This document shows positions 40,325 through 47,544 of a stretch of DNA of 64,000 nucleotides, one piece after another. The notes under the pieces were generated by a model. That model had not been told where the DNA came from, ran no database searches, and saw only the letters and a list, made by a program, of their open reading frames with translations. The DNA lies in the NCBI RefSeq assembly GCF_054482595.1, contig NZ_CM137008.1. One strand, 5' to 3'. How positions within the stretch are numbered: the first letter of the stretch is position 1; each line of letters begins with the position of its first letter. The position numbers were made by a program, and so were the translations under genes.

Positions 40325-42885
40325 TAAGCGTCGTCTGAGTACCGTCTGGTCCCGAATCCAGGATCCTGTAACTTAAGCACCCACTTATTTTGCAGGTGGA
40401 CACCTCATGCGCACCAAAGAACGACTCCCCCGGAAACGCTATTCTCCTGAATTTAAAATGGAACTGGTCAGGCTGGCCCTTGAACAAGATGTCACGAACG
40501 GTGCAATAGTGGTTCTTCCGCAACTTGGGTGGAAGAAAATGGATGAAACTTTCTGGTGAACAAGGATCTAAGCTGTTTTAAGTTATGGGCAACGCAATGC
40601 ACTCTCTTAAGACACTTCTACAGTTACCTTGCGGATGGCGATGCAGTCGACAAATTATTAGCTCTGACGGTATCACCCTCCATCTCCACGGAAAACGCAA
40701 AACAGCACAATGTCCTGAATGCTCTAAGCGTAGCGACTCTGTTCATAGTTCTCGTCGGCGCCGGATACAGCATCTACCCTGCTCCGGGCAGACGCTATGG
40801 CTTGTATTTTCCGTCCGCCACTGGTACTGCCGTAACCCTGTTTGTTCACGAAAAATTTTTGCCGAGTCGCTTGCTCCCTTCGCCGGTTCACACCAGCAGT
40901 CTTCACAGGCGTTACAAAATTTACAACGTCAACTGGGATTAATAGCCGGAGGTGAGGCTGGAAAACGGGCTGCAACGGCAGTGGGTCTCCGTTGCAGTGC
41001 AGATACTCTTCTTCGCAGGGTTATCAATACCCCGGGGACGAAACAGTCAGGCGCGCCTCATGTCGGTATTGATGAGTGGGCGTGGCATCGGGGCCACCGT
41101 TACGGTAAGTTAATCGTCAATCTTGATACTCACCGTCCCCTCGTCCTGCTTCCCGGTCGTGATCAGCGTACGCTGGCGACCTGGTTCAGAAAATATCCGG
41201 AAATACAGGTTGTCTCGCGTGATCGCAGTGGAGTCTATGCAACAGCAGCACGTGAAGGTGCACCTCAGGCCAGACAGGTGGCCGATCGATGGCACCTGCT
41301 AAAAAATATTGGCGATGCGCTTGAACGAATGATGTACAGACATATACCTCTGATACGTCTTGTTGCCAGTGAGTTGTCACTAAAGAAATCACCTGAGCCA
41401 GAACTGTCTGTGCCTGCAGTATCGCTCCGTCGTCCGGAACGCCTTAAACAGCAAACCCGCAAAAAACGGCATCAGCGTTGGACAGAGGTTATGGCCCTGC
41501 ATAACAAGGGATGTAGTTTCAGGGAAATATCCCGTATTCAGGCCTGTCGCGTGTGACAGTCAGTCGCTGGGTGCGTTCAGGAACATTCCCTGAAATGTCA
41601 ACCCGACCTCCAAAGCGAGGGCTTCTGGACCCATGGAGGGAGTGGTTAAAAGAGCAACGAGAAAGCGGTAATTATAACGCCAGCCGGATATGGCGGGAAA
41701 TGGTGGCCCGGGGGTTTACAGGCAGTGAAACCATCGTCAGGGATGCTGTTGCCAAATGGCGTAAAGGCTGGATCCCACCGGTTACTACTGCCGCCAGACT
41801 TCCTTCAGTGTCCCGGGTAAGCCGGTGGTTGATGCCCTGGAGAATAATCAGGGGGGAAGAAAATTATGCTTCCCGATTTATTAGTCTGATGTGTGAAAAA
41901 GAACCGGAGCTGAAAATAGCGCAGCAACTGGTACTCGAGTTCTACCGTATTCTGAAAACCCAAAATAAATCACAGCTTAGCAGCTGGTTCACTCGAGTCC
42001 ACGAAAGCGGCTCAGCAGAACTTCGGCGCGTGGCTGCGGGGATGGAAGCTGATGCTGCGGCTATATGTGAGGCAATCAGCAGTCGCTGGAGTAATGGTGT
42101 TGTCGAAGGTCATGTAAATCGCCTGAAGATGTTGAAACGCCAGATGTATGGTCGAGCCGGATTTGAACTGCTCAGGCAGAGGGTCATGAGTCCACTGGCA
42201 TGAAAATCTCCACCCAAGTTGCGGAAGAACCACTTTTCATCCGTCGTTGACACAAGAGGGCAGTATCGCTGCTCTGGCCCGTCAACATGACGTCAACGAT
42301 AATCTGCTCTTTAAATGGATAAGGCTCTAGCAACGTGAAGGGCGGGCGGGTCTGTCGACCCCGAAAAAATGCATCGTCGCTTCCTACCCTGATACCCGTG
42401 CAACTTCAGGCGGAGCCTTCTCTCCCGGAATTCGAACCACTATCCTGTTCACCTCCCACTGCCTGCCACATAAAATGTCGGGGCGGAGAAATAACGCTGA
42501 CCTCTCCCTCAGTTGAGCTTATGAGCACTGTCCTGCGCGAACTGATGCGGGGGTCTGTATGATAAATCTTCCCGCAGGCACAAAAATCTGGCTGGTTGCC
42601 GGTATCACCGATATGCGCAACGGCTTCAATGGTCTCGCCGCAAAGGTGCAGACAGCGTTGAAAGATGACCCGATGTCCGGCCACGTCTTCATCTTCCGGG
42701 GCCGCAGCGGCAGTCAGGTCAAACTGCTGTGGTCCACCGGCGACGGACTGTGCCTGCTGACCAAAAGGCTGGAGCGTGGCCGCTTCGCCTGGCCGTCGAC
42801 CCGCGATGGCAAAGTGTTCCTGATGCCGGCGCAGCTGGCGATGCTGATGGAAGGTATCGACTGGCGACAGCCAAAGCGGTTACTG
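40325..42885 (+). mobile_element. IS66-family remnant (orf1 split by an ISL3-like insertion, orf2 present, large transposase absent)
   Basis: gtaagcg terminus at 40325; orf1 N-terminus MRTKERLPRKRYSPEFKMELVRLALEQ (40407-) resumes after the insertion as ...EGSIAALARQHDVNDNLLFKWIRL; orf2 at 42559..42924 (MINLPAGTKIWLVAGITDMRNGFNGL...DWRQPKR). Confidence 0.5.
40494..42250 (+). mobile_element. ISL3-family-like insertion sequence with frameshifted transposase
   Basis: Imperfect ~40-bp terminal inverted repeats sharing core agtggttcttccgcaacttgggtgga (40508-40533 and complement 42209-42234); transposase in two ORFs 40585..41556 and 41553..42203 (zinc-finger N-terminus, GIDEWAWHRGHRYG, C-terminal SNGVVEGHVNRLKMLKRQMYG); frame break inside an HTH segment. 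Confidence 0.55.
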
Positions 42886-43744
42886 ACGTCCCTGACATGT
42901 TGTAGCCCAGGTCTTCTTCGTTGATAAAGTTCACATCCAGAGGATGGATACTTCCTGTAGCCCGTAATATCGTCGATTCAATATCCTGCACATTCATCGG
43001 GATCACCGATGCAAGAAAAGCCCATTGATCAGAATAAGGCTGGAAATTAATATCAACAAAAACGCTTCCCCCCGATGCACGCGGTCTTTTTTGCAGAGGT
43101 AACGCGATAAGATTACCAAATCCTCCTTTTGGCATAGTATCCTGATTAGGAAATAATCGGTCATAAGAACTCAATTGCAGCTGTCGGGTCCGGCTGCACG
43201 TATAGCTAATAATAGCAGTCCCCAGACGGCGAGCTTCGCGGGCCGAAACTCGTGAAGCAAAAAATATCCAGACATGCGCTCCCTGACGTGAGCGGGATAT
43301 TTCCAGCGCAGCAGGTACACTCAGCTCATCACAGGCTCGCATGAACGCGGATGCATCCTTCTGCCATTCAGCTTTATCAAAATCAACAGCCAGAAAATAA
43401 CAGGAATCATCTTCCAGCAACGGATATAACCCGGCAGTATGCGTGCCTGCCAGATGCTGGTAGATGACAAGATCAGATACAGGGAGTAACTGACGGTGCG
43501 TACAGTCCCCGCATTTTATCCGGGGTTTACCGCATATTCTCGCCTGCCATTCGTTAGCGCAGGCAGGAGAGTACCCTGATTTGCCGCTGGTTTTACTTTC
43601 CCAACGAAGGGCCCATATATCATCACGCCCACGAAACAACCGACGAAATAATGCAACCTTCTCGTCGGTGGATAATACGGAAACGCGCTGCACAGGGCTC
43701 GGCGGTTTACGTCGCCATTCCAAGTAATGAGACCAGACGGGCAT
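42719..43744 (-). pseudogene. primase-polymerase (AEP superfamily)-like protein, probably C-terminally truncated by the IS66 remnant
   Basis: N-terminal ~285 aa with DxD (LAVDFD) and sxH (RQGAHVWIFF) primase-like motifs and a C-x2-C pair; the last ~60 codons of the track ORF are antisense read-through of IS66 orf2. Confidence 0.45.
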
Positions 43745-43947
43745 TTTCTGCCCTCAATGCAGCTAATTCATCGCTGTCAGATTTATGAACCATATTCGTT
43801 ACCTGTATCCGATCCACTGAGGCACCACGGCAGAAATTCGGGTCCCCTACACTGATGACAAAGCGCCCCGCCCTCTTCTGCCTATTAACTCAAGCACCTC
43901 CCAACAACTTACAGAAACTTAATTCTAATACCTAATACAGCTGTAAT

Positions 43948-44511
43948 TCAGTTGTGTCGTGGTCGGCCCCGGTTACTTTTTTCGGGAAGCCTGCTACGGC
44001 CCAGAATAATACCGTGTTCTTTCTGATCCTGTTTAGCCAGGTAGCTGAGGGCGTAACGTAAGTCGTCTACTGCGGACTTATCACTATAGTGAATCACGTG
44101 ATCGATACGCACCGGGTATTTATCTTTAGCCCGGCACAGATGAAAATAACCCTCCCCTTCCGTGATCCGCCTCCAGATATCCCCCAGTTGCCTGGATATC
44201 TGATAAGAGTTCTTGTGACGTTGCCCATCCAGATAGCCGATAAAATGAATATGAAGCCCTTTGTCTGGTGTATATTCCATAACCCAGTAATATCCTGCCA
44301 ACATCGTCTGGGTTTCGCTAAGTAAACGGTATATTTCCATACACATACTGTGCTTACAGGAATGCCCGAAACTGGGCGTGTCTTTCCTGTAGGCAAAATC
44401 AATTCTGAAAGGTAACAGTTTAGAAAAACGTTGAAACAATCCCTCCATGTGTTCATTCACATCTTTCAGAATCGCGAAATTCATTTCGTAATTGGGATTG
44501 GCATTATACAT
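43948..44511 (-). CDS. hypothetical protein (187 aa), possibly YfjJ/YagK-type (inovirus Gp2-like)
   Basis: ORF track; HIHFIGY motif; position in an integrase/AlpA/DUF3987-type module; family assignment uncertain. Confidence 0.4.
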   Translation of the reverse strand: MYNANPNYEMNFAILKDVNEHMEGLFQRFSKLLPFRIDFAYRKDTPSFGHSCKHSMCMEIYRLLSETQTMLAGYYWVMEYTPDKGLHIHFIGYLDGQRHKNSYQISRQLGDIWRRITEGEGYFHLCRAKDKYPVRIDHVIHYSDKSAVDDLRYALSYLAKQDQKEHGIILGRSRLPEKSNRGRPRHN

Positions 44512-45642
44512 TTTATAGTCCTTAATTTATAAAACTCACAGGAAGAGGAAATTATGTAAATACTGAGAGAACATAAACGCCGTAGCACGGCATTAATAAA
44601 CGAAGTAAACCAGCAGCACAGACACCCTGATAAAACTGTTTTGTATTACCGCATCGCTGTAACGAGGTAATACTTCAGAATTCAGTGAGGCTCTCTTAAA
44701 CAGAGGACCAGTAAGAATTACAATGGTAAAAACACACCTCATAGAATTGAGTTTAAGGAAGCACCATTCACTCAACCTGACATTCACAAAAGTCAGTACC
44801 AGGTGGCCTCAGGTAACATCGCTATTAATATTATCCTGCCATTAAGTAAAAACAGAAACTCTGTGAGGAAGTCTCACCAATATTTGACCAGTAGCATAAA
44901 GAATAACGATATGAGAGATACGCCCACACCAGAGATGATTACCCCATACAAAAAGATAATATTTATTAATACCACCGCACCTCAATAGACTAATAACACA
45001 CTAATAGCGTTTTGGTACACACTTAACACTAACTATGCACCAGACACATACTCAGGATTAACATTCCCAACATTTATGGTACTCTCAAAGAGTATAATTC
45101 ACCACACAGGTAAACTCTCACACCAGTAGTATGGAGATAATGCTGTACACATACTTACAGAGTAAAGTGTACAGTTAGCATACAGTGGCGAGCAGACATT
45201 ACAACATAAAGACATAAGATAGCATAATAAGAACATAACAAAACTCCCACTAATAATACTAATTAACCTTAATTCTTTTTTGAACAGGAAATCAACATAG
45301 CTCCAGACCTCTTCAGGTCATACACTTTTGTATTGGATGTTCAATGTGTACTTCTGCACAAACAAAAAAATAAAACCCGCAAAATAAAATATCAGCCCCA
45401 AAAATACAGCGTGAAACACCACGTTATGGATATGTTTTCATATCACCAGAAGCATATTTCACACATACAATACAGAAACAATTCATCATATAATCAGGGT
45501 TACTGTTCACTCCTCTCGGTTATCCGCGAGACGATAAAACATGACACTAATCACAAAAACGAGAGATAGTATTTGCGAAATATAAACAACATAAAAATCA
45601 ATGCGTTGCGATTTTTTATTTTTTCAGACATGCATGCCCCCT

Positions 45643-45678
45643 CTGCTATTGTTGCTAGCCGGCTAGCAACAATAGCAG
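45643..45678. repeat. perfect 36-bp palindrome (18+18, no loop) just downstream of the 607-aa gene
   Basis: ctgctattgttgctagcc followed by ggctagcaacaatagcag; no adjacent U-tract on either strand. Confidence 0.6.
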
Positions 45679-45720
45679 GGATATACAAACATCGGATGCC
45701 AAAAACACGTTCCGATAATA

Positions 45721-47544
45721 TCATCGAGGATCTGACTGGTTGTTTTTAGTATCATCACCACAAATGATGGTTAATGCGTTGTAGATCAGTCTGCGTCTGT
45801 TCTTGTTTTCAGCATTATTTCCATACAACATCATGACGTTTTTAATATCATCAACCGGTGATATTACATAATCAACCAATACGCCAAGCTTCTCAATACA
45901 TTGCAGTAAAGTATATTTGTGTCTGCCCGTAAATAATCCTATCAGGTTTTCTTTACTTTCACGACTGGATAATATTTTGTTCTCTGTAATTAATTCAGCC
46001 AACGTTTCACCATCGTAAACACGTTCTTTATCTATCAGAATATTTATCTTATCTAACGCCCTCTCTACATTATCAAGAAGACCTGTAATATACGGAGGCT
46101 GAATATCTGACTTTGTACTAATATTTGCAAGCATCGAATTATACATTTTAATGACACGCATCAGAGTAAAATTATTCGCATCATATTGTATTTCATCTTC
46201 ATTATACGCAGGATCCGTCACGACCCTTAAGTCCATAAATGCATCCTGATAAGCTTTTACATAATCAAGTAATTCGAACAGTGAACCATGCTTTATTTTC
46301 TCCCTGTTTAATTTGATCTCCAGCGCTATCCTGAGAACTGAAAAAGCGCCGGGAAGATACCCAGAAGGTAACTCGTATTTTGGGGATTCATCATAAAACC
46401 GAAGAGCTTTGTGGAGTTTGTTCCGCCGAATCAGATAAATAAGGACGGCCAGTAACATGTAGCACCTGGTCACATAACCACGGGCATTCTGCAACTGTTC
46501 AAAATAATTAATAATGTTTTCCAGATATACATCATCATAACTTTTCTTATCAGAAAGATTAAACACCATATCTTTTAAAGATTCGATATATTCTTGTGAT
46601 TTATCATCAAGTGACACAATATAACGAGTTAATGCTCCTTTGGGGCCACTCTCAAACTCATGAAACCGTTCAAGTAATGCTCTTGCATAAGGCGTTGTGT
46701 CAAAAATATTAAAATCATAAAGATAGCGTGCAGCGTAGCCATACAACCCATGTACCCAAAGCCCTTCTCTTATCAGCACTCTGAGATAATATGCAATACT
46801 GTCAAGTATCTTTACCTTCCGTTGCATATCAAGCAAAATACTTAATGAATAAAATGCATAATAGAACTTGTCAATGTTGTTGAGTATTCTGTCCAGCTCA
46901 CTCTTATCAAGCTTCTTCTCTCTGTAATCCTTCTTGTATTCATTCTTACAGGCCTTTATATATTGTTTCATAAGGCTCTTCCTTTTACCGTACCCTTTTC
47001 GAATAGTTCCCTGGTATTTTCCCAGCTCATACATTTTTCCGTTTTCCCGAAAATCTTCTCTGTTAAATCCCAGTTCAGCAAGATACTCCCGGAGATAACG
47101 TTTAACGGCAGCCTCATCGCTTTCTGTACCAGAGTAATCCAGGCAGGGACAATATGATTTTTGCAAAAAATTATAGATATGATAATAAAACCCTGTTTCA
47201 TTCTCCGGACGATATGTGTTATATATATCCAGCACAATAAAAACAACTCCAAAGCTTTTCAGAAAATAGTTACGGATATATTCGGACTTTAATGTTGAAT
47301 ACACAGGGTAAGAATTCATCATGTAATAAAAATATTCATACCGGGAAAATATAATTCGCCGTTGTTCCAGACTATACACCCCTTCAGCATCAATAATTTG
47401 ACTGAGCTCATTATAACGTTGATCCCAGAATCTTTGATGCGCTCCAAAATCAGTACTCTTCCGCTTATCTCTCGGACTCTCTCCTTCCTTAAACAACTCA
47501 AAAACTGTACAAATATCATACAAAAGATTTGTAAACATGCGCAT
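45721..47544 (-). CDS. hypothetical protein (607 aa), AT-rich, no recognisable catalytic motif; divergent from alpA
   Basis: ORF track; Lys/Tyr/Asn-rich, largely helical-looking sequence; no Walker A, HKD, HNH, DDE or HEPN-like motifs recognised by eye. Confidence 0.6.
   Translation of the reverse strand: MRMFTNLLYDICTVFELFKEGESPRDKRKSTDFGAHQRFWDQRYNELSQIIDAEGVYSLEQRRIIFSRYEYFYYMMNSYPVYSTLKSEYIRNYFLKSFGVVFIVLDIYNTYRPENETGFYYHIYNFLQKSYCPCLDYSGTESDEAAVKRYLREYLAELGFNREDFRENGKMYELGKYQGTIRKGYGKRKSLMKQYIKACKNEYKKDYREKKLDKSELDRILNNIDKFYYAFYSLSILLDMQRKVKILDSIAYYLRVLIREGLWVHGLYGYAARYLYDFNIFDTTPYARALLERFHEFESGPKGALTRYIVSLDDKSQEYIESLKDMVFNLSDKKSYDDVYLENIINYFEQLQNARGYVTRCYMLLAVLIYLIRRNKLHKALRFYDESPKYELPSGYLPGAFSVLRIALEIKLNREKIKHGSLFELLDYVKAYQDAFMDLRVVTDPAYNEDEIQYDANNFTLMRVIKMYNSMLANISTKSDIQPPYITGLLDNVERALDKINILIDKERVYDGETLAELITENKILSSRESKENLIGLFTGRHKYTLLQCIEKLGVLVDYVISPVDDIKNVMMLYGNNAENKNRRRLIYNALTIICGDDTKNNQSDPR

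What the first reader, a model, noticed from the sequence alone, without database searches (positions are those of the whole stretch)
44512..45720. 1.2 kb ORF-free, strand-biased (CA-rich on plus strand) region ending in a perfect palindrome
Between the YfjJ-like gene and the 607-aa gene there is no credible ORF on either strand. Composition is strongly skewed, with many aca/cac runs on the plus strand. The region terminates in a perfect 36-bp palindrome (45643-45678) without a U-tract, which looks more like a protein-binding or cruciform site than a terminator. Possibilities are a long non-coding RNA, an H-NS-bound silencing region, or a decayed gene.
Basis: seen in the sequence. Interest (0 to 1): 0.45.

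Follow-up and report, generated by a model that had tools for sequence, protein, structure and literature searches.

The report
Upstream control region of island Rep-like gene
The 1.2 kb gene-free stretch is the upstream region of a rolling-circle-replicase-like gene of a genomic island: only a short promoter-like box, the ribosome-binding region and a hairpin behind the preceding gene look constrained, and the rest is fast-evolving spacer.

Summary
Window 44512-45720 has no conserved ORF, is T-rich and C-poor on the minus strand, and contains a perfect 36-bp palindrome at 45643-45678.

The skew is not special to this region. It equals the third-codon-position composition of the co-oriented 607-aa gene.

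The region lies between that gene and a 187-aa 'inovirus-type Gp2' protein with HUH and YxxxY motifs. It has four parts:
- **Hairpin:** a -33.5 kcal/mol hairpin 42 nt after the 607-aa stop codon. A Citrobacter-type homologous island keeps it through three compensatory pair changes.
- **Distal spacer:** about 365 nt with no recognised feature.
- **Box:** AATTAAGGTTAATTAGTATTAT at 45253-45274. In metagenome contigs, 56 of 57 copies with enough downstream sequence are followed by a Gp2-family gene. It contains a -10-like hexamer (TATTAT or TATAAT) but no -35 element.
- **Leader:** about 730 nt, ORF-free and confined to Escherichia. Its distal half changes faster than gp2 silent sites and its proximal 350 nt changes about as fast. 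It ends in a conserved Shine-Dalgarno region.

My best reading is terminator or 3' hairpin, then promoter/operator, then a long, mostly unconstrained leader. The main rival is that the box is the Rep nick site or origin. I found no Rfam family, no iterons and no gene remnant. Interest is modest.

The parts
45721..47544 (-). Upstream gene (context): a 607-aa protein of unknown family. It is a backbone gene of this island type, transcribed divergently from alpA.
   Evidence: ORF. No Pfam, NCBIfam or PADLOC match. Homologues of 30-32% identity occur in Nissle-type and Citrobacter-type islands.
45639..45681 (-). Strong hairpin 42 nt after the 607-aa stop codon. Its core is the perfect 36-bp palindrome at 45643-45678, extended by CCC/GGG. 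It has no U-tract. Likely a 3'-end, terminator or stabiliser hairpin of the upstream gene.
   Evidence: The repeat is perfect, 18+18 nt. Folding energy is -33.5 kcal/mol with z = -5.25. The homologous hairpin in L055 5525-5562 has three compensatory pairs (TTGT/ACAA against CAGC/GCTG), while CCCTGCTA..TGCTA is conserved.
45275..45638 (-). Distal AT-rich spacer specific to the 607-aa-gene type of island. No recognised feature. It contains one weak terminator-like site at 45410-45423.
   Evidence: 97% identical in strain 47-1826 but not homologous to Nissle-type islands. The terminator-like hairpin is not better than shuffles (z = -0.12).
45243..45274 (-). Conserved box AATTAAGGTTAATTAGTATTAT followed by TAGTGGGAGT. 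It carries a -10-like hexamer TATTAT at 45253-45258. Candidate promoter/operator of gp2, or alternatively the Rep recognition or nick site.
   Evidence: Found upstream on the same strand of Gp2 homologues down to 33% identity. 56 of 57 metagenome copies with at least 1900 nt downstream are followed by a Gp2-family ORF. 96% of its columns are invariant in the E. coli class. A variant box carries a perfect TATAAT.
44856..45242 (-). Hypervariable part of the untranslated leader. It is indel-rich and evolves faster than gp2 silent sites.
   Evidence: 10-25% invariant columns against 49% at gp2 four-fold sites. Alignment A3 shows deletions, duplications and a microsatellite in relatives.
44512..44855 (-). 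Proximal leader, inherited together with gp2 and conserved at about the neutral level. It contains the local hairpins and the SD region.
   Evidence: About 84% identical in roughly 1300 E. coli genomes and never annotated. 56% invariant columns. Folding z-score is -1.9 on both strands.
44566..44594 (-). Terminator-like hairpin AAUGCCGUGCUACGGCGUU with a U-rich tail, 55-85 nt before the gp2 start. Candidate attenuator.
   Evidence: Listed by the terminator scan. Folding energy is -9.6 kcal/mol with z = -3.5. One stem pair occurs as C-G, U-A and A-U among variants (helix 14).
44844..44853 (-). Invariant GUUUUUACUU, predicted to pair with the SD region about 320 nt downstream (candidate long-range anti-SD).
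   Evidence: RNAalifold helix 2: 97% of cells paired, but with one-sided changes only, so it is unproven.
44512..44545 (-). Translation-initiation region: CCUCUUCCU, then AAGGA (SD, 44519-44523), then AUG. Homologous to the covarying SD-sequestering hairpin of short-leader relatives.
   Evidence: 88% invariant columns. Short-class leaders show GTTCCTTTG..CAAAGGAAC-type hairpins with compensatory variation.
43948..44511 (-). gp2: a 187-aa 'inovirus-type Gp2' (YagK/YfjJ family) HUH endonuclease-like protein. This is the gene the region serves.
   Evidence: Conserved HxH (H87, H89), Y153-x3-Y157-LAK and a C-terminal RGRPR. AlphaFold2 pLDDT 89.7. The best PDB fold matches are parvovirus NS1, AAV Rep and circovirus Rep nuclease domains, but they are weak (E 1e-3 to 1e-2, TM 0.3-0.4).
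42719..43744 (-). Truncated TOTE-type PrimPol gene (context): 341 of about 786 aa, cut by an IS element.
   Evidence: PF22548 at E = 5.5e-100. The full-length form is PrimPol plus an SF2 helicase. RefSeq marks it as a pseudogene.

Best explanation
The stretch is the intergenic control region of a backbone gene of a CP4-57-like genomic island. That gene, gp2, encodes a small HUH (rolling-circle Rep-like) endonuclease. Read on the minus strand, the region works as follows.

1. The transcript of the 607-aa gene ends at, or is stabilised by, a very strong hairpin.
2. After about 365 nt of spacer comes a 22-32 nt AT-rich box that accompanies Gp2-family genes across Enterobacterales. I read it as the gp2 promoter: its TATTAT/TATAAT hexamer is the -10 element. 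The invariant GGTTAATTAG spacer would be the binding site of a conserved regulator, perhaps Gp2 itself or an AlpA-type factor. There is no -35 element, so the promoter should be weak or activator-dependent, and probably H-NS-silenced.
3. Transcription then crosses a roughly 730-nt untranslated leader found only in the Escherichia lineage. Most of it is unconstrained spacer. Its T-rich, C-poor make-up matches the silent sites of neighbouring sense strands. As a side effect it makes the sense RNA a poor Rho substrate and the antisense RNA a good one.
4. Near its end the leader has a hairpin with a U-rich tail that may attenuate transcription. The Shine-Dalgarno sequence is held in secondary structure, so Gp2 is made only sparingly.

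**Shown:** the anatomy, the conservation pattern, the coupling of box to gene, and the compensatory changes in the hairpins.

**Inferred:** promoter activity, direction of transcription, attenuation, and occlusion of the SD sequence.
For: - **Box-gene coupling.** The box is found upstream on the same strand of Gp2 homologues in Citrobacter, Erwinia, Edaphovirga, Budvicia, Yersinia and others. Of 57 metagenome box copies with enough downstream sequence, 56 are followed by a Gp2-family ORF. 18 of 40 loci found through the protein carry the box. A count by eye of the printed 'no motif' loci adds about 14 carrying the variant GGGTTTTTAGTATAAT with a consensus -10.
- **No rival promoter in relatives.** In short-leader relatives the box lies 68-283 nt from the ATG and no other conserved upstream element is evident by eye. 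It is followed by a covarying SD-sequestering hairpin, so the mRNA must start at or near the box.
- **K-12 paralogue.** The K-12 paralogue yagK has a GGTATTAT-TATAAT element at the same place. It was mapped by genomic SELEX as a constitutive sigma-70 promoter with H-NS binding (PMC3946193).
- **Conservation profile.** Invariant columns: box 96%, SD region 88%, proximal leader 56%, gp2 four-fold sites 49%, distal leader 10%.
- **Terminator-like sites.** 5 were found against 1.2 expected. The hairpin at 44576-44594 has three Watson-Crick variants at one pair.
- **Upstream hairpin.** It is kept by three compensatory pairs next to a homologue only 32% identical.
- **Skew.** It equals the third-position composition of co-oriented genes.
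- **Regulator present.** An AlpA-family regulator is encoded in the island.
Against: - No -35 hexamer is conserved. The generic promoter scan did not pick up the box.
- There is no transcript or TSS evidence for any member.
- A 22-nt block that stays invariant where the neighbouring protein has fallen to 33% identity is more than a promoter needs. It would also fit a Rep recognition site.
- Covariation in the leader is weak. There are 16 doubly changed cells against 7.8 +/- 2.6 in shuffles (2/500 reach it), and the tool warns that this is not a probability.
- The fold z-score is the same on both strands.
- The long-range anti-SD helix has no compensatory change.
- The upstream hairpin has no U-tract, so it is not a canonical intrinsic terminator.
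Confidence: 0.55

Rival explanations
1. The box is the double-strand origin (recognition and nick site) of the Gp2 HUH endonuclease. After AlpA- and integrase-driven excision, the circular island would be copied by rolling-circle replication. In the E. coli lineage the adjacent PrimPol-helicase would assist. The strong hairpin upstream of the box would act as a single-strand origin. The T-rich, C-poor sense strand would reflect repeated single-stranded exposure. This reading can coexist with the box also being the promoter.
For: - Gp2 keeps HUH and YxxxY catalytic motifs. Its model best resembles Rep/NS1 nuclease domains.
- The box contains TAGTATTAT/TAATATTAT. From my own knowledge, this is 8 of 9 identical to the nonanucleotide origins of circo-, nano- and geminiviruses, and the E. 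coli version ATTATTAGTGG resembles the Ff gpII nick site TTTAATAGTGG.
- Near-invariance of 22 nt across very divergent Reps is typical of nick sites.
- The box sits just upstream of rep, as in Ff and many rolling-circle plasmids.
- L055 has three direct repeats of the box-proximal unit.
- The PrimPol-helicase follows gp2 in 14 of 21 E. coli-class loci.
- Copy-number gain of an integrase and a Gp2 gene was reported in Nissle gut isolates.
- Gp2-like proteins are core genes of int/alpA islands in Pseudomonas.
Against: - No GC-rich stem presents the putative nick site. There is only an imperfect 6-bp A/T inverted repeat.
- The window has no iterons.
- The part of the box that stays fixed across both box variants is exactly a good -10 hexamer (TATTAT or TATAAT).
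- The skew is shared by the 607-aa gene upstream of the box, so it does not start at the box.
- The upstream hairpin travels with the 607/627-aa gene and not with gp2.
- No true inovirus in the phage collection encodes a close Gp2 relative.
- The fold matches are weak (TM 0.3-0.4).
Confidence: 0.22
2. The region encodes a discrete long non-coding RNA of about 690 nt. It would run from the box promoter to the hairpin and U-rich tail at 44566-44594 and have its own function in trans or as a scaffold. gp2 expression would be mere read-through.
For: - A promoter-like box and a terminator-like hairpin with one covarying pair bracket an ORF-free stretch.
- Several short blocks are invariant, for example TTTTTACTTAATGG and CAGTTTTATCAGG.
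- The C-poor sense RNA would resist Rho (inference).
Against: - More than half of the putative RNA evolves faster than silent sites and tolerates large indels and microsatellites.
- The longest invariant runs are no longer than expected by chance (P = 0.20).
- There is no Rfam match.
- Relatives do without it, with leaders of 68-283 nt.
- The fold z-score is only -1.9 and equal on both strands.
Confidence: 0.1
3. The extra roughly 600 nt between box and gp2 is the wreck of one or more genes that once sat there. A sister lineage has an hha-family gene at this position. The stretch would now be functionless filler.
For: - A sister lineage has an hha-like gene (PF05321, E = 6e-26) between box and gp2. 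It is intact in four loci and visibly decaying in at least five.
- The leader evolves neutrally or faster and is indel-prone.
- Short-leader relatives show that the extra length is dispensable.
Against: - No protein similarity of any kind is left. The best tblastn E-value to Hha is 7, whereas decayed sister loci still score 1e-4 to 1e-30.
- No frame is conserved.
- The composition (T far above A) matches silent sites and not whole codons.
- No annotated homologue was found in plasmids or E. coli genomes.
Confidence: 0.13

Closest known systems
Promoter regions of the E. coli K-12 paralogues yagK (CP4-6) and yfjJ (CP4-57)
   Same: Same gene family (YagK/YfjJ, 'inovirus-type Gp2'). Same place in int-alpA-yfjI-type islands. 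They share the GGTAWTAT core just before a -10 hexamer. The yagK spacer binds RNA polymerase holoenzyme and H-NS in genomic SELEX (PMC3946193).
   Different: The K-12 gaps are only 152 and 271 bp. They lack the left half of the box (AATTAAGGTTAATT), the 730-nt leader and the upstream palindrome.
Intergenic region upstream of gene II in Ff filamentous phages (plus and minus origins, packaging hairpin)
   Same: A long, hairpin-bearing, non-coding region directly upstream of a gene annotated as Gp2-type replication initiator, on a T-rich sense strand. ATTATTAGTGG in the box resembles the gpII nick site TTTAATAGTGG (the Ff sequence is from my own knowledge).
   Different: No phage structural genes are present and no close phage homologue of the protein exists. 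No array of conserved hairpins was found, and most of the stretch is unconstrained. Nicking is untested.
AlpA/Q-type antitermination cassettes (P. aeruginosa PalpB with its AlpA-binding element and leader terminator tB)
   Same: An AlpA-family gene lies in the same island (PF05930). There is an invariant sequence between the -35 position and the -10 hexamer, ending in GGTA/AGTA as in the Pseudomonas element GGGACG-N5-GGTA. Terminator-like hairpins lie in the leader before the first gene (PMC7969949 and PMC9371919).
   Different: The sequence of the element differs. The island's AlpA ORF here is 86 aa, whereas contact residues of the Pseudomonas protein run to position 142, so the RNA-polymerase-binding part may be missing. 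No -10-like pause element could be established. All of this is analogy only.
Leader regions of plasmid rep genes with an occluded ribosome-binding site (R1 repA, ColIb-P9 repZ; from my own knowledge)
   Same: A replication-initiator-like gene whose Shine-Dalgarno sequence lies in a conserved, covarying hairpin. This implies tight translational limitation.
   Different: No antisense RNA gene, leader peptide or pseudoknot could be identified here. The local hairpin is weakened in the window's lineage and may be replaced by an unproven long-range pairing.

Membership tests
Any curated RNA family (Rfam 15, including retron msr/msd, riboswitches, large ncRNAs) | Covariance-model match at or near the family's gathering score | tested here: not met
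   The permissive search of 43500-46500 gave only 5 chance-level hits (snoRNA and miRNA models, E 1.6-9.3, all far below gathering scores).
Retron | Reverse-transcriptase gene next to the non-coding region | tested here: not met
   The neighbours are a 607-aa unknown protein, an HUH Gp2 and a PrimPol fragment. No RT domain was found.
Intrinsic (Rho-independent) terminator: the palindrome | Stable G+C-containing stem-loop just downstream of a stop codon | tested here: met
   -33.5 kcal/mol, 42 nt after the stop codon, conserved by compensatory changes in L055.
Intrinsic (Rho-independent) terminator: the palindrome | U-tract immediately 3' of the stem | tested here: not met
   The sequence after the stem is AGGGGGCAUGCAUG on the sense strand and GGAUAUACAAAC on the other. 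It is not listed by the terminator scan.
Sigma-70 promoter: the box | -10 hexamer TAnnnT conserved in position | tested here: met
   TATTAT in the main box and TATAAT in the variant box, at the same register in nearly all relatives.
Sigma-70 promoter: the box | -35 hexamer 16-18 bp upstream | tested here: not met
   The position is occupied by a non-conserved A-rich run (consensus ttaaaaaat). The box is not reported by the consensus scan.
Sigma-70 promoter: the box | Mapped transcription start | not testable with these tools
   No transcript data are available. There is only indirect support from genomic SELEX on the K-12 paralogue yagK.
Rolling-circle double-strand origin | Adjacent gene for an HUH initiator with catalytic His-hydrophobic-His and Tyr motifs | tested here: met
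   HxH and YxxxY are conserved in 24 relatives. The fold matches to Rep/NS1 domains are weak.
Rolling-circle double-strand origin | Conserved nick sequence presented in a hairpin loop or next to initiator-binding repeats | tested here: inconclusive
   The conserved AT-rich box is present. It has only an imperfect 6-bp A/T inverted repeat. The window has no iterons. L055 has three repeats.
Rolling-circle double-strand origin | Site-specific cleavage by the initiator and origin-dependent replication | not testable with these tools
   This needs biochemistry or genetics.
Decayed protein gene | Residual protein similarity or a conserved frame in relatives | tested here: not met
   No conserved ORF. 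No similarity to the hha-like gene of the sister lineage. No annotated homologue in the E. coli or plasmid collections.
Component of the TOTE PrimPol-helicase system | Co-occurrence of the non-coding region and Gp2 with AEP-TOTE genes in distant relatives | tested here: not met
   They are adjacent in 14 of 21 E. coli-class loci. AEP-TOTE relatives at 46-62% identity (L146, L147, L149) have no Gp2 and no long gap upstream.
AlpA/Q-type antitermination cassette | Regulator-binding element inside the promoter, terminator(s) in the leader, and a cognate AlpA with an RNA-polymerase-binding part | tested here: inconclusive
   An invariant spacer and terminator-like hairpins are present. An AlpA-family gene is present, but it is only 86 aa. 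The element's sequence differs from GGGACG-N5-GGTA.
H-NS-silenced AT-rich region | H-NS occupancy | not testable with these tools
   The region is 63% A+T. The paralogous yagK spacer is listed as H-NS-bound.

The most novel reading that the evidence does not exclude
The AT-rich box is the origin of a so far unrecognised rolling-circle replication module shared by the large family of int-alpA-yfjI-yfjJ ('CP4-57-like') genomic islands of Enterobacterales, and perhaps Pseudomonas. Gp2 would nick the box after excision. The hairpin upstream would serve as the single-strand origin. In E. coli the neighbouring PrimPol-helicase would prime and unwind. Islands regarded as passive or 'cryptic' would then amplify themselves as single- or double-stranded circles.
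Probability: 0.17. Interest if true: 0.7.

Novelty: new member of a known kind. Interest (0 to 1): 0.33.

Why it matters
About 1500 of the 5426 complete E. coli genomes searched carry part of this stretch, and none annotates it. The YagK/YfjJ 'Gp2' genes next to it are core genes of a very common class of genomic islands, and their function is unknown. The stretch reduces to a small set of constrained cis-elements: a box tightly coupled to every Gp2-family gene, an occluded ribosome-binding site, and a compensated hairpin behind the upstream gene. This gives experimenters precise targets. The same box is either the switch that keeps a Rep-like nuclease silent or the site where that nuclease acts. 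Deciding between the two would show whether these islands replicate autonomously. The work also shows that the striking strand bias and the 1.2 kb size, which attracted attention, are largely by-products and not signs of a new RNA.

Tried and rejected
- **Known RNA families:** Rfam at permissive thresholds found nothing.
- **Repeats:** Tandem repeats and iterons were absent. The k-mer excess is mild. Scans for degenerate copies of the box-proximal unit were not significant, apart from one ad hoc pattern.
- **Small conserved ORFs or leader peptides:** An ORF from a GTG at alignment column 619 recurs in 9 of 16 variants but is broken in the others. I rejected it.
- **Decayed hha-like gene:** No trace was found.
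- **Homology between the E. coli-type leader and the other long-leader lineage:** Only the box aligns.
- **The region as part of the TOTE PrimPol-helicase system:** Rejected, because distant relatives lack it.
- **True phage relatives of Gp2:** There are none beyond two weak Acinetobacter prophage-like hits.
- **PDB by sequence:** Nothing.
- **Literature on 'TOTE':** Four searches returned nothing.
- **Known EHEC island sRNA Esr41:** It lies elsewhere, between z1181 and z1182, and has a poly(U) terminator, so it is not this region.
- **Other copies of the box's left half in the window:** None.
- **Weak terminator-like site at 45410-45423:** It folds no better than shuffles.
- **ArcA-box and sigma-54 resemblances of the box:** I considered these from memory and dropped them, because spacing and key bases do not fit.
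Full report
**1. The observation**

The sequence at 44512-45720 is as described.
- The longest ORFs are 78, 64 and 61 codons. None is kept in frame or extent in 16 homologous variants.
- On the minus strand, which is the sense strand of both flanking genes, the composition is T 38.5, A 24.8, G 21.5, C 15.1%.
- The palindrome at 45643-45678 is perfect, 18+18 nt with no spacer. No U-tract follows it on either strand.
- There are no tandem repeats and no match to any Rfam family.

**2. Context**

On the minus strand the gene order is as follows.
- A 607-aa protein with no family match.
- The gap.
- A 187-aa 'inovirus-type Gp2' protein (weak REP_ORF2-G2P and YagK_YfjJ_C matches).
- A TOTE-type PrimPol gene cut down to 341 aa by IS elements.

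On the other side of the 607-aa gene lie a divergent AlpA-family regulator (PF05930), a DUF3987 protein and a tyrosine integrase. This is the conserved end of a CP4-57-like genomic island.

Gp2 keeps an HxH motif and a Y-x3-Y-LAK motif in 24 relatives. Its AlphaFold2 model (pLDDT 89.7) is closest to the HUH nuclease domains of parvovirus NS1, AAV Rep and circovirus Rep. The scores are weak, however (E 1e-3 to 1e-2, TM 0.3-0.4).

**3. Distribution**

- 155 complete E. coli genomes carry the whole 1.2 kb.
- About 1300 more carry the 350 nt next to gp2 at about 84% identity.
- No record annotates anything there.
- In Nissle 1917, O157:H7 and other strains the homologous gap is 820-1012 bp and lies between yfjI and gp2.
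- K-12 yfjI-yfjJ has only 152 bp.

**4. A deeply conserved box**

I compared the regions upstream of Gp2 homologues from other genera. The only shared element is AATTAAGGTTAATT[AG][AG]TATTAT, followed a few bases later by GRAGT. In the window it lies at 45243-45274.

I then searched metagenome contigs with the 22-mer alone, which gave 86 loci. Of the 57 copies with at least 1900 nt downstream, 56 are followed by a Gp2-family ORF on the same strand.

Among the 40 loci found through the protein that have enough upstream sequence, 18 have the box within five substitutions. By eye, about 14 of the 'no motif' loci printed have the variant GGGTTTTTAGTATAATTAAGG.

The part common to both forms is GGTTWWTTAGTATWAT. 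This is a good or perfect -10 hexamer plus the ten bases before it. No -35 hexamer is conserved; an A-rich run sits in its place.

The distance from box to ATG falls into three classes:
- 68-283 nt in most lineages.
- 601-809 nt in the Escherichia class, which includes the window.
- 925-1160 nt in a third class.

The third class holds an hha-family gene (PF05321, E = 6e-26). It is intact in four loci and decaying in others.

**5. What is constrained**

I aligned 16 Escherichia-class variants (A3) and counted invariant columns.

| Segment | Invariant columns |
|---|---|
| Box core | 96% |
| SD region | 88% |
| Proximal leader (44512-44855) | 56% |
| gp2 third codon positions | 65% |
| gp2 four-fold sites | 49% |
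| Middle leader | 25% |
| Distal leader | 10% |

The proximal leader therefore drifts at about the neutral rate, together with gp2. The distal half changes faster, through deletions, duplications and even a (TATAGG)n microsatellite. The longest invariant runs are not longer than chance (P = 0.20).

Covariation on the RNAalifold structure is modest:
- 16 doubly changed cells against 7.8 +/- 2.6 in shuffles, reached by 2 of 500 shuffles.
- The signal is concentrated in three local hairpins.
- One of them, at 44576-44594, has a U-rich tail, a fold z-score of -3.5, and occurs with C-G, U-A and A-U at one pair.

The predicted pairing of the SD region with the invariant GUUUUUACUU at 44844-44853 has no compensatory change and remains a guess.

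In short-leader relatives the SD lies in a clearly covarying 7-9 bp hairpin preceded by an A-rich AAAAA(T)TACA element.

The 381-nt proximal leader folds with z about -1.9 on both strands.

**6. The skew**

Third codon positions of the 607-aa gene have T .40, A .25, G .22, C .13. This is practically the composition of the gap. The gp2 and PrimPol genes show the same direction.

So the bias is that of unconstrained sites on this sense strand. It extends upstream of the box. It is not a signature of the gap, of an origin, or of a coding remnant, whose all-position composition would have T about equal to A.

**7. The palindrome**

It lies 42 nt after the stop of the 607-aa gene and folds at -33.5 kcal/mol (z = -5.25).

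In a Citrobacter-type island the gene order is the same: int, DUF3987, alpA, a 627-aa homologue of 32% identity, box, gp2. There an 18+18 hairpin lies 69 nt after the stop. CCCTGCTA..TGCTA is conserved, and three positions are changed on both arms so that pairing is kept (TTGT/ACAA becomes CAGC/GCTG).

Nissle-type islands have a different hairpin after yfjI, and a terminator-like one after their own 605-aa gene.

The palindrome is therefore a selected hairpin that belongs to the upstream gene. The most economical reading is a 3'-end, terminator or stabiliser structure. The missing U-tract and the conserved TGCTA repeats leave room for a sequence-specific partner.

**8. Interpretation**

The best-supported model is a composite control region: 3' hairpin of the upstream gene, spacer, gp2 promoter/operator (the box), a long and largely unconstrained leader with possible attenuation, and an occluded ribosome-binding site.

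Indirect support comes from three sources.
- The K-12 paralogue yagK has a GGTATTAT-TATAAT element that was mapped as a constitutive sigma-70 promoter bound by H-NS.
- The short-leader relatives have no other conserved upstream element evident by eye that could be the promoter.
- In the AlpA antitermination system of P. aeruginosa, a regulator-binding element lies inside the promoter and terminators lie in the leader. This is an analogy only.

The main rival is that the box is the recognition or nick site of the HUH protein, that is, a rolling-circle origin. In its favour:
- The 22 nt stay invariant across very divergent proteins.
- The box resembles nonanucleotide origins and the Ff gpII site (my own knowledge).
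- L055 has three direct repeats of the box-proximal unit.
- A PrimPol-helicase lies next to gp2 in 14 of 21 Escherichia-class loci.
- Island literature is suggestive.

Against it:
- There is no presenting hairpin and no iterons in the window.
- The skew does not start at the box.
- The conserved core is exactly a -10 hexamer.

The two readings are not exclusive.

The PrimPol-helicase itself does not need this region. Relatives at 46-62% identity have neither Gp2 nor a long gap upstream.

**9. Verdict**

The finding is real but mostly ordinary. It is an unannotated regulatory intergenic region whose size and strand bias are by-products. The parts worth keeping are the Gp2-coupled box, the SD-occluding structures and the compensated hairpin. 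As far as I could find, none of these is described. They give direct handles on the unknown function of the YagK/YfjJ Gp2 family.

Noticed in passing
window 42719-43744 (-) and 41553-42562: The TOTE-type PrimPol-helicase gene is truncated to 341 of about 786 aa by IS66/ISL3-family insertions. RefSeq marks it as a frameshifted pseudogene in SMS-3-5. Whatever the gp2-PrimPol pair does, it is probably defunct in this strain.
   Followed up: partly
L117 6222-6485, also L062, L064, L073 (intact); L069, L070, L074, L091, L141 (remnants): In a sister lineage an hha-family gene (H-NS co-regulator; PF05321, E = 6e-26) sits between the box and gp2. It is caught at several stages of decay.
   Followed up: partly
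L055 5745-5857: A 22-nt unit overlapping the 3' end of the box (TATTATTAGTGGAAGTATCTAT) is repeated three times at 45-46 nt spacing in the Citrobacter-type leader. It looks like an iteron array. No counterpart exists in the window.
   Followed up: partly
short-leader loci, e.g. L036 1097-1287, L033 4784-4964, L011 4843-5000: Nearly all short leaders end with an A-rich AAAAA(T)TACA element, followed 8-12 nt later by a 7-9 bp hairpin that buries the Shine-Dalgarno sequence. The hairpin shows clear compensatory variation between lineages.
   Followed up: partly
L077, L106, L108: Two gp2 paralogues lie 2-3 kb apart, each preceded by its own version of the box.
   Followed up: no
window 45721-47544; L002 10459-12276; L055 3573-5456: A family of roughly 605-627-aa proteins has no match in Pfam, NCBIfam or PADLOC. 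It is always divergent from alpA near the integrase end of these islands. The three lineages are 30-32% identical.
   Followed up: partly
L022, L024, L025 at 4652 (-) and L026 at 1294 (-): A box-like half-site, TTAAGGTTAATTG, lies on the opposite strand about 350 nt upstream of gp2. It faces the divergently transcribed 268-aa gene and hints at a shared regulator.
   Followed up: no
A3 alignment: L089 (columns about 380-410), L109 (columns about 505-515): The hypervariable leader carries a (TATAGG)n microsatellite in one variant and an 11-nt tandem duplication in another.
   Followed up: no
window 43900-43945 (-): The gp2-PrimPol spacer contains GGTATTAGAATTAAG, a permuted echo of the box (GGTATTA + GAATTAAG). 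It may be chance in AT-rich DNA.
   Followed up: no
window 44492-44519 (+): A promoter-like site, TTGGGA-16-TATAGT, lies on the opposite strand and overlaps the gp2 start. It could drive an antisense RNA across the SD region and leader. Its hexamers fall in invariant sequence, but this is explained by the coding and SD constraints.
   Followed up: no
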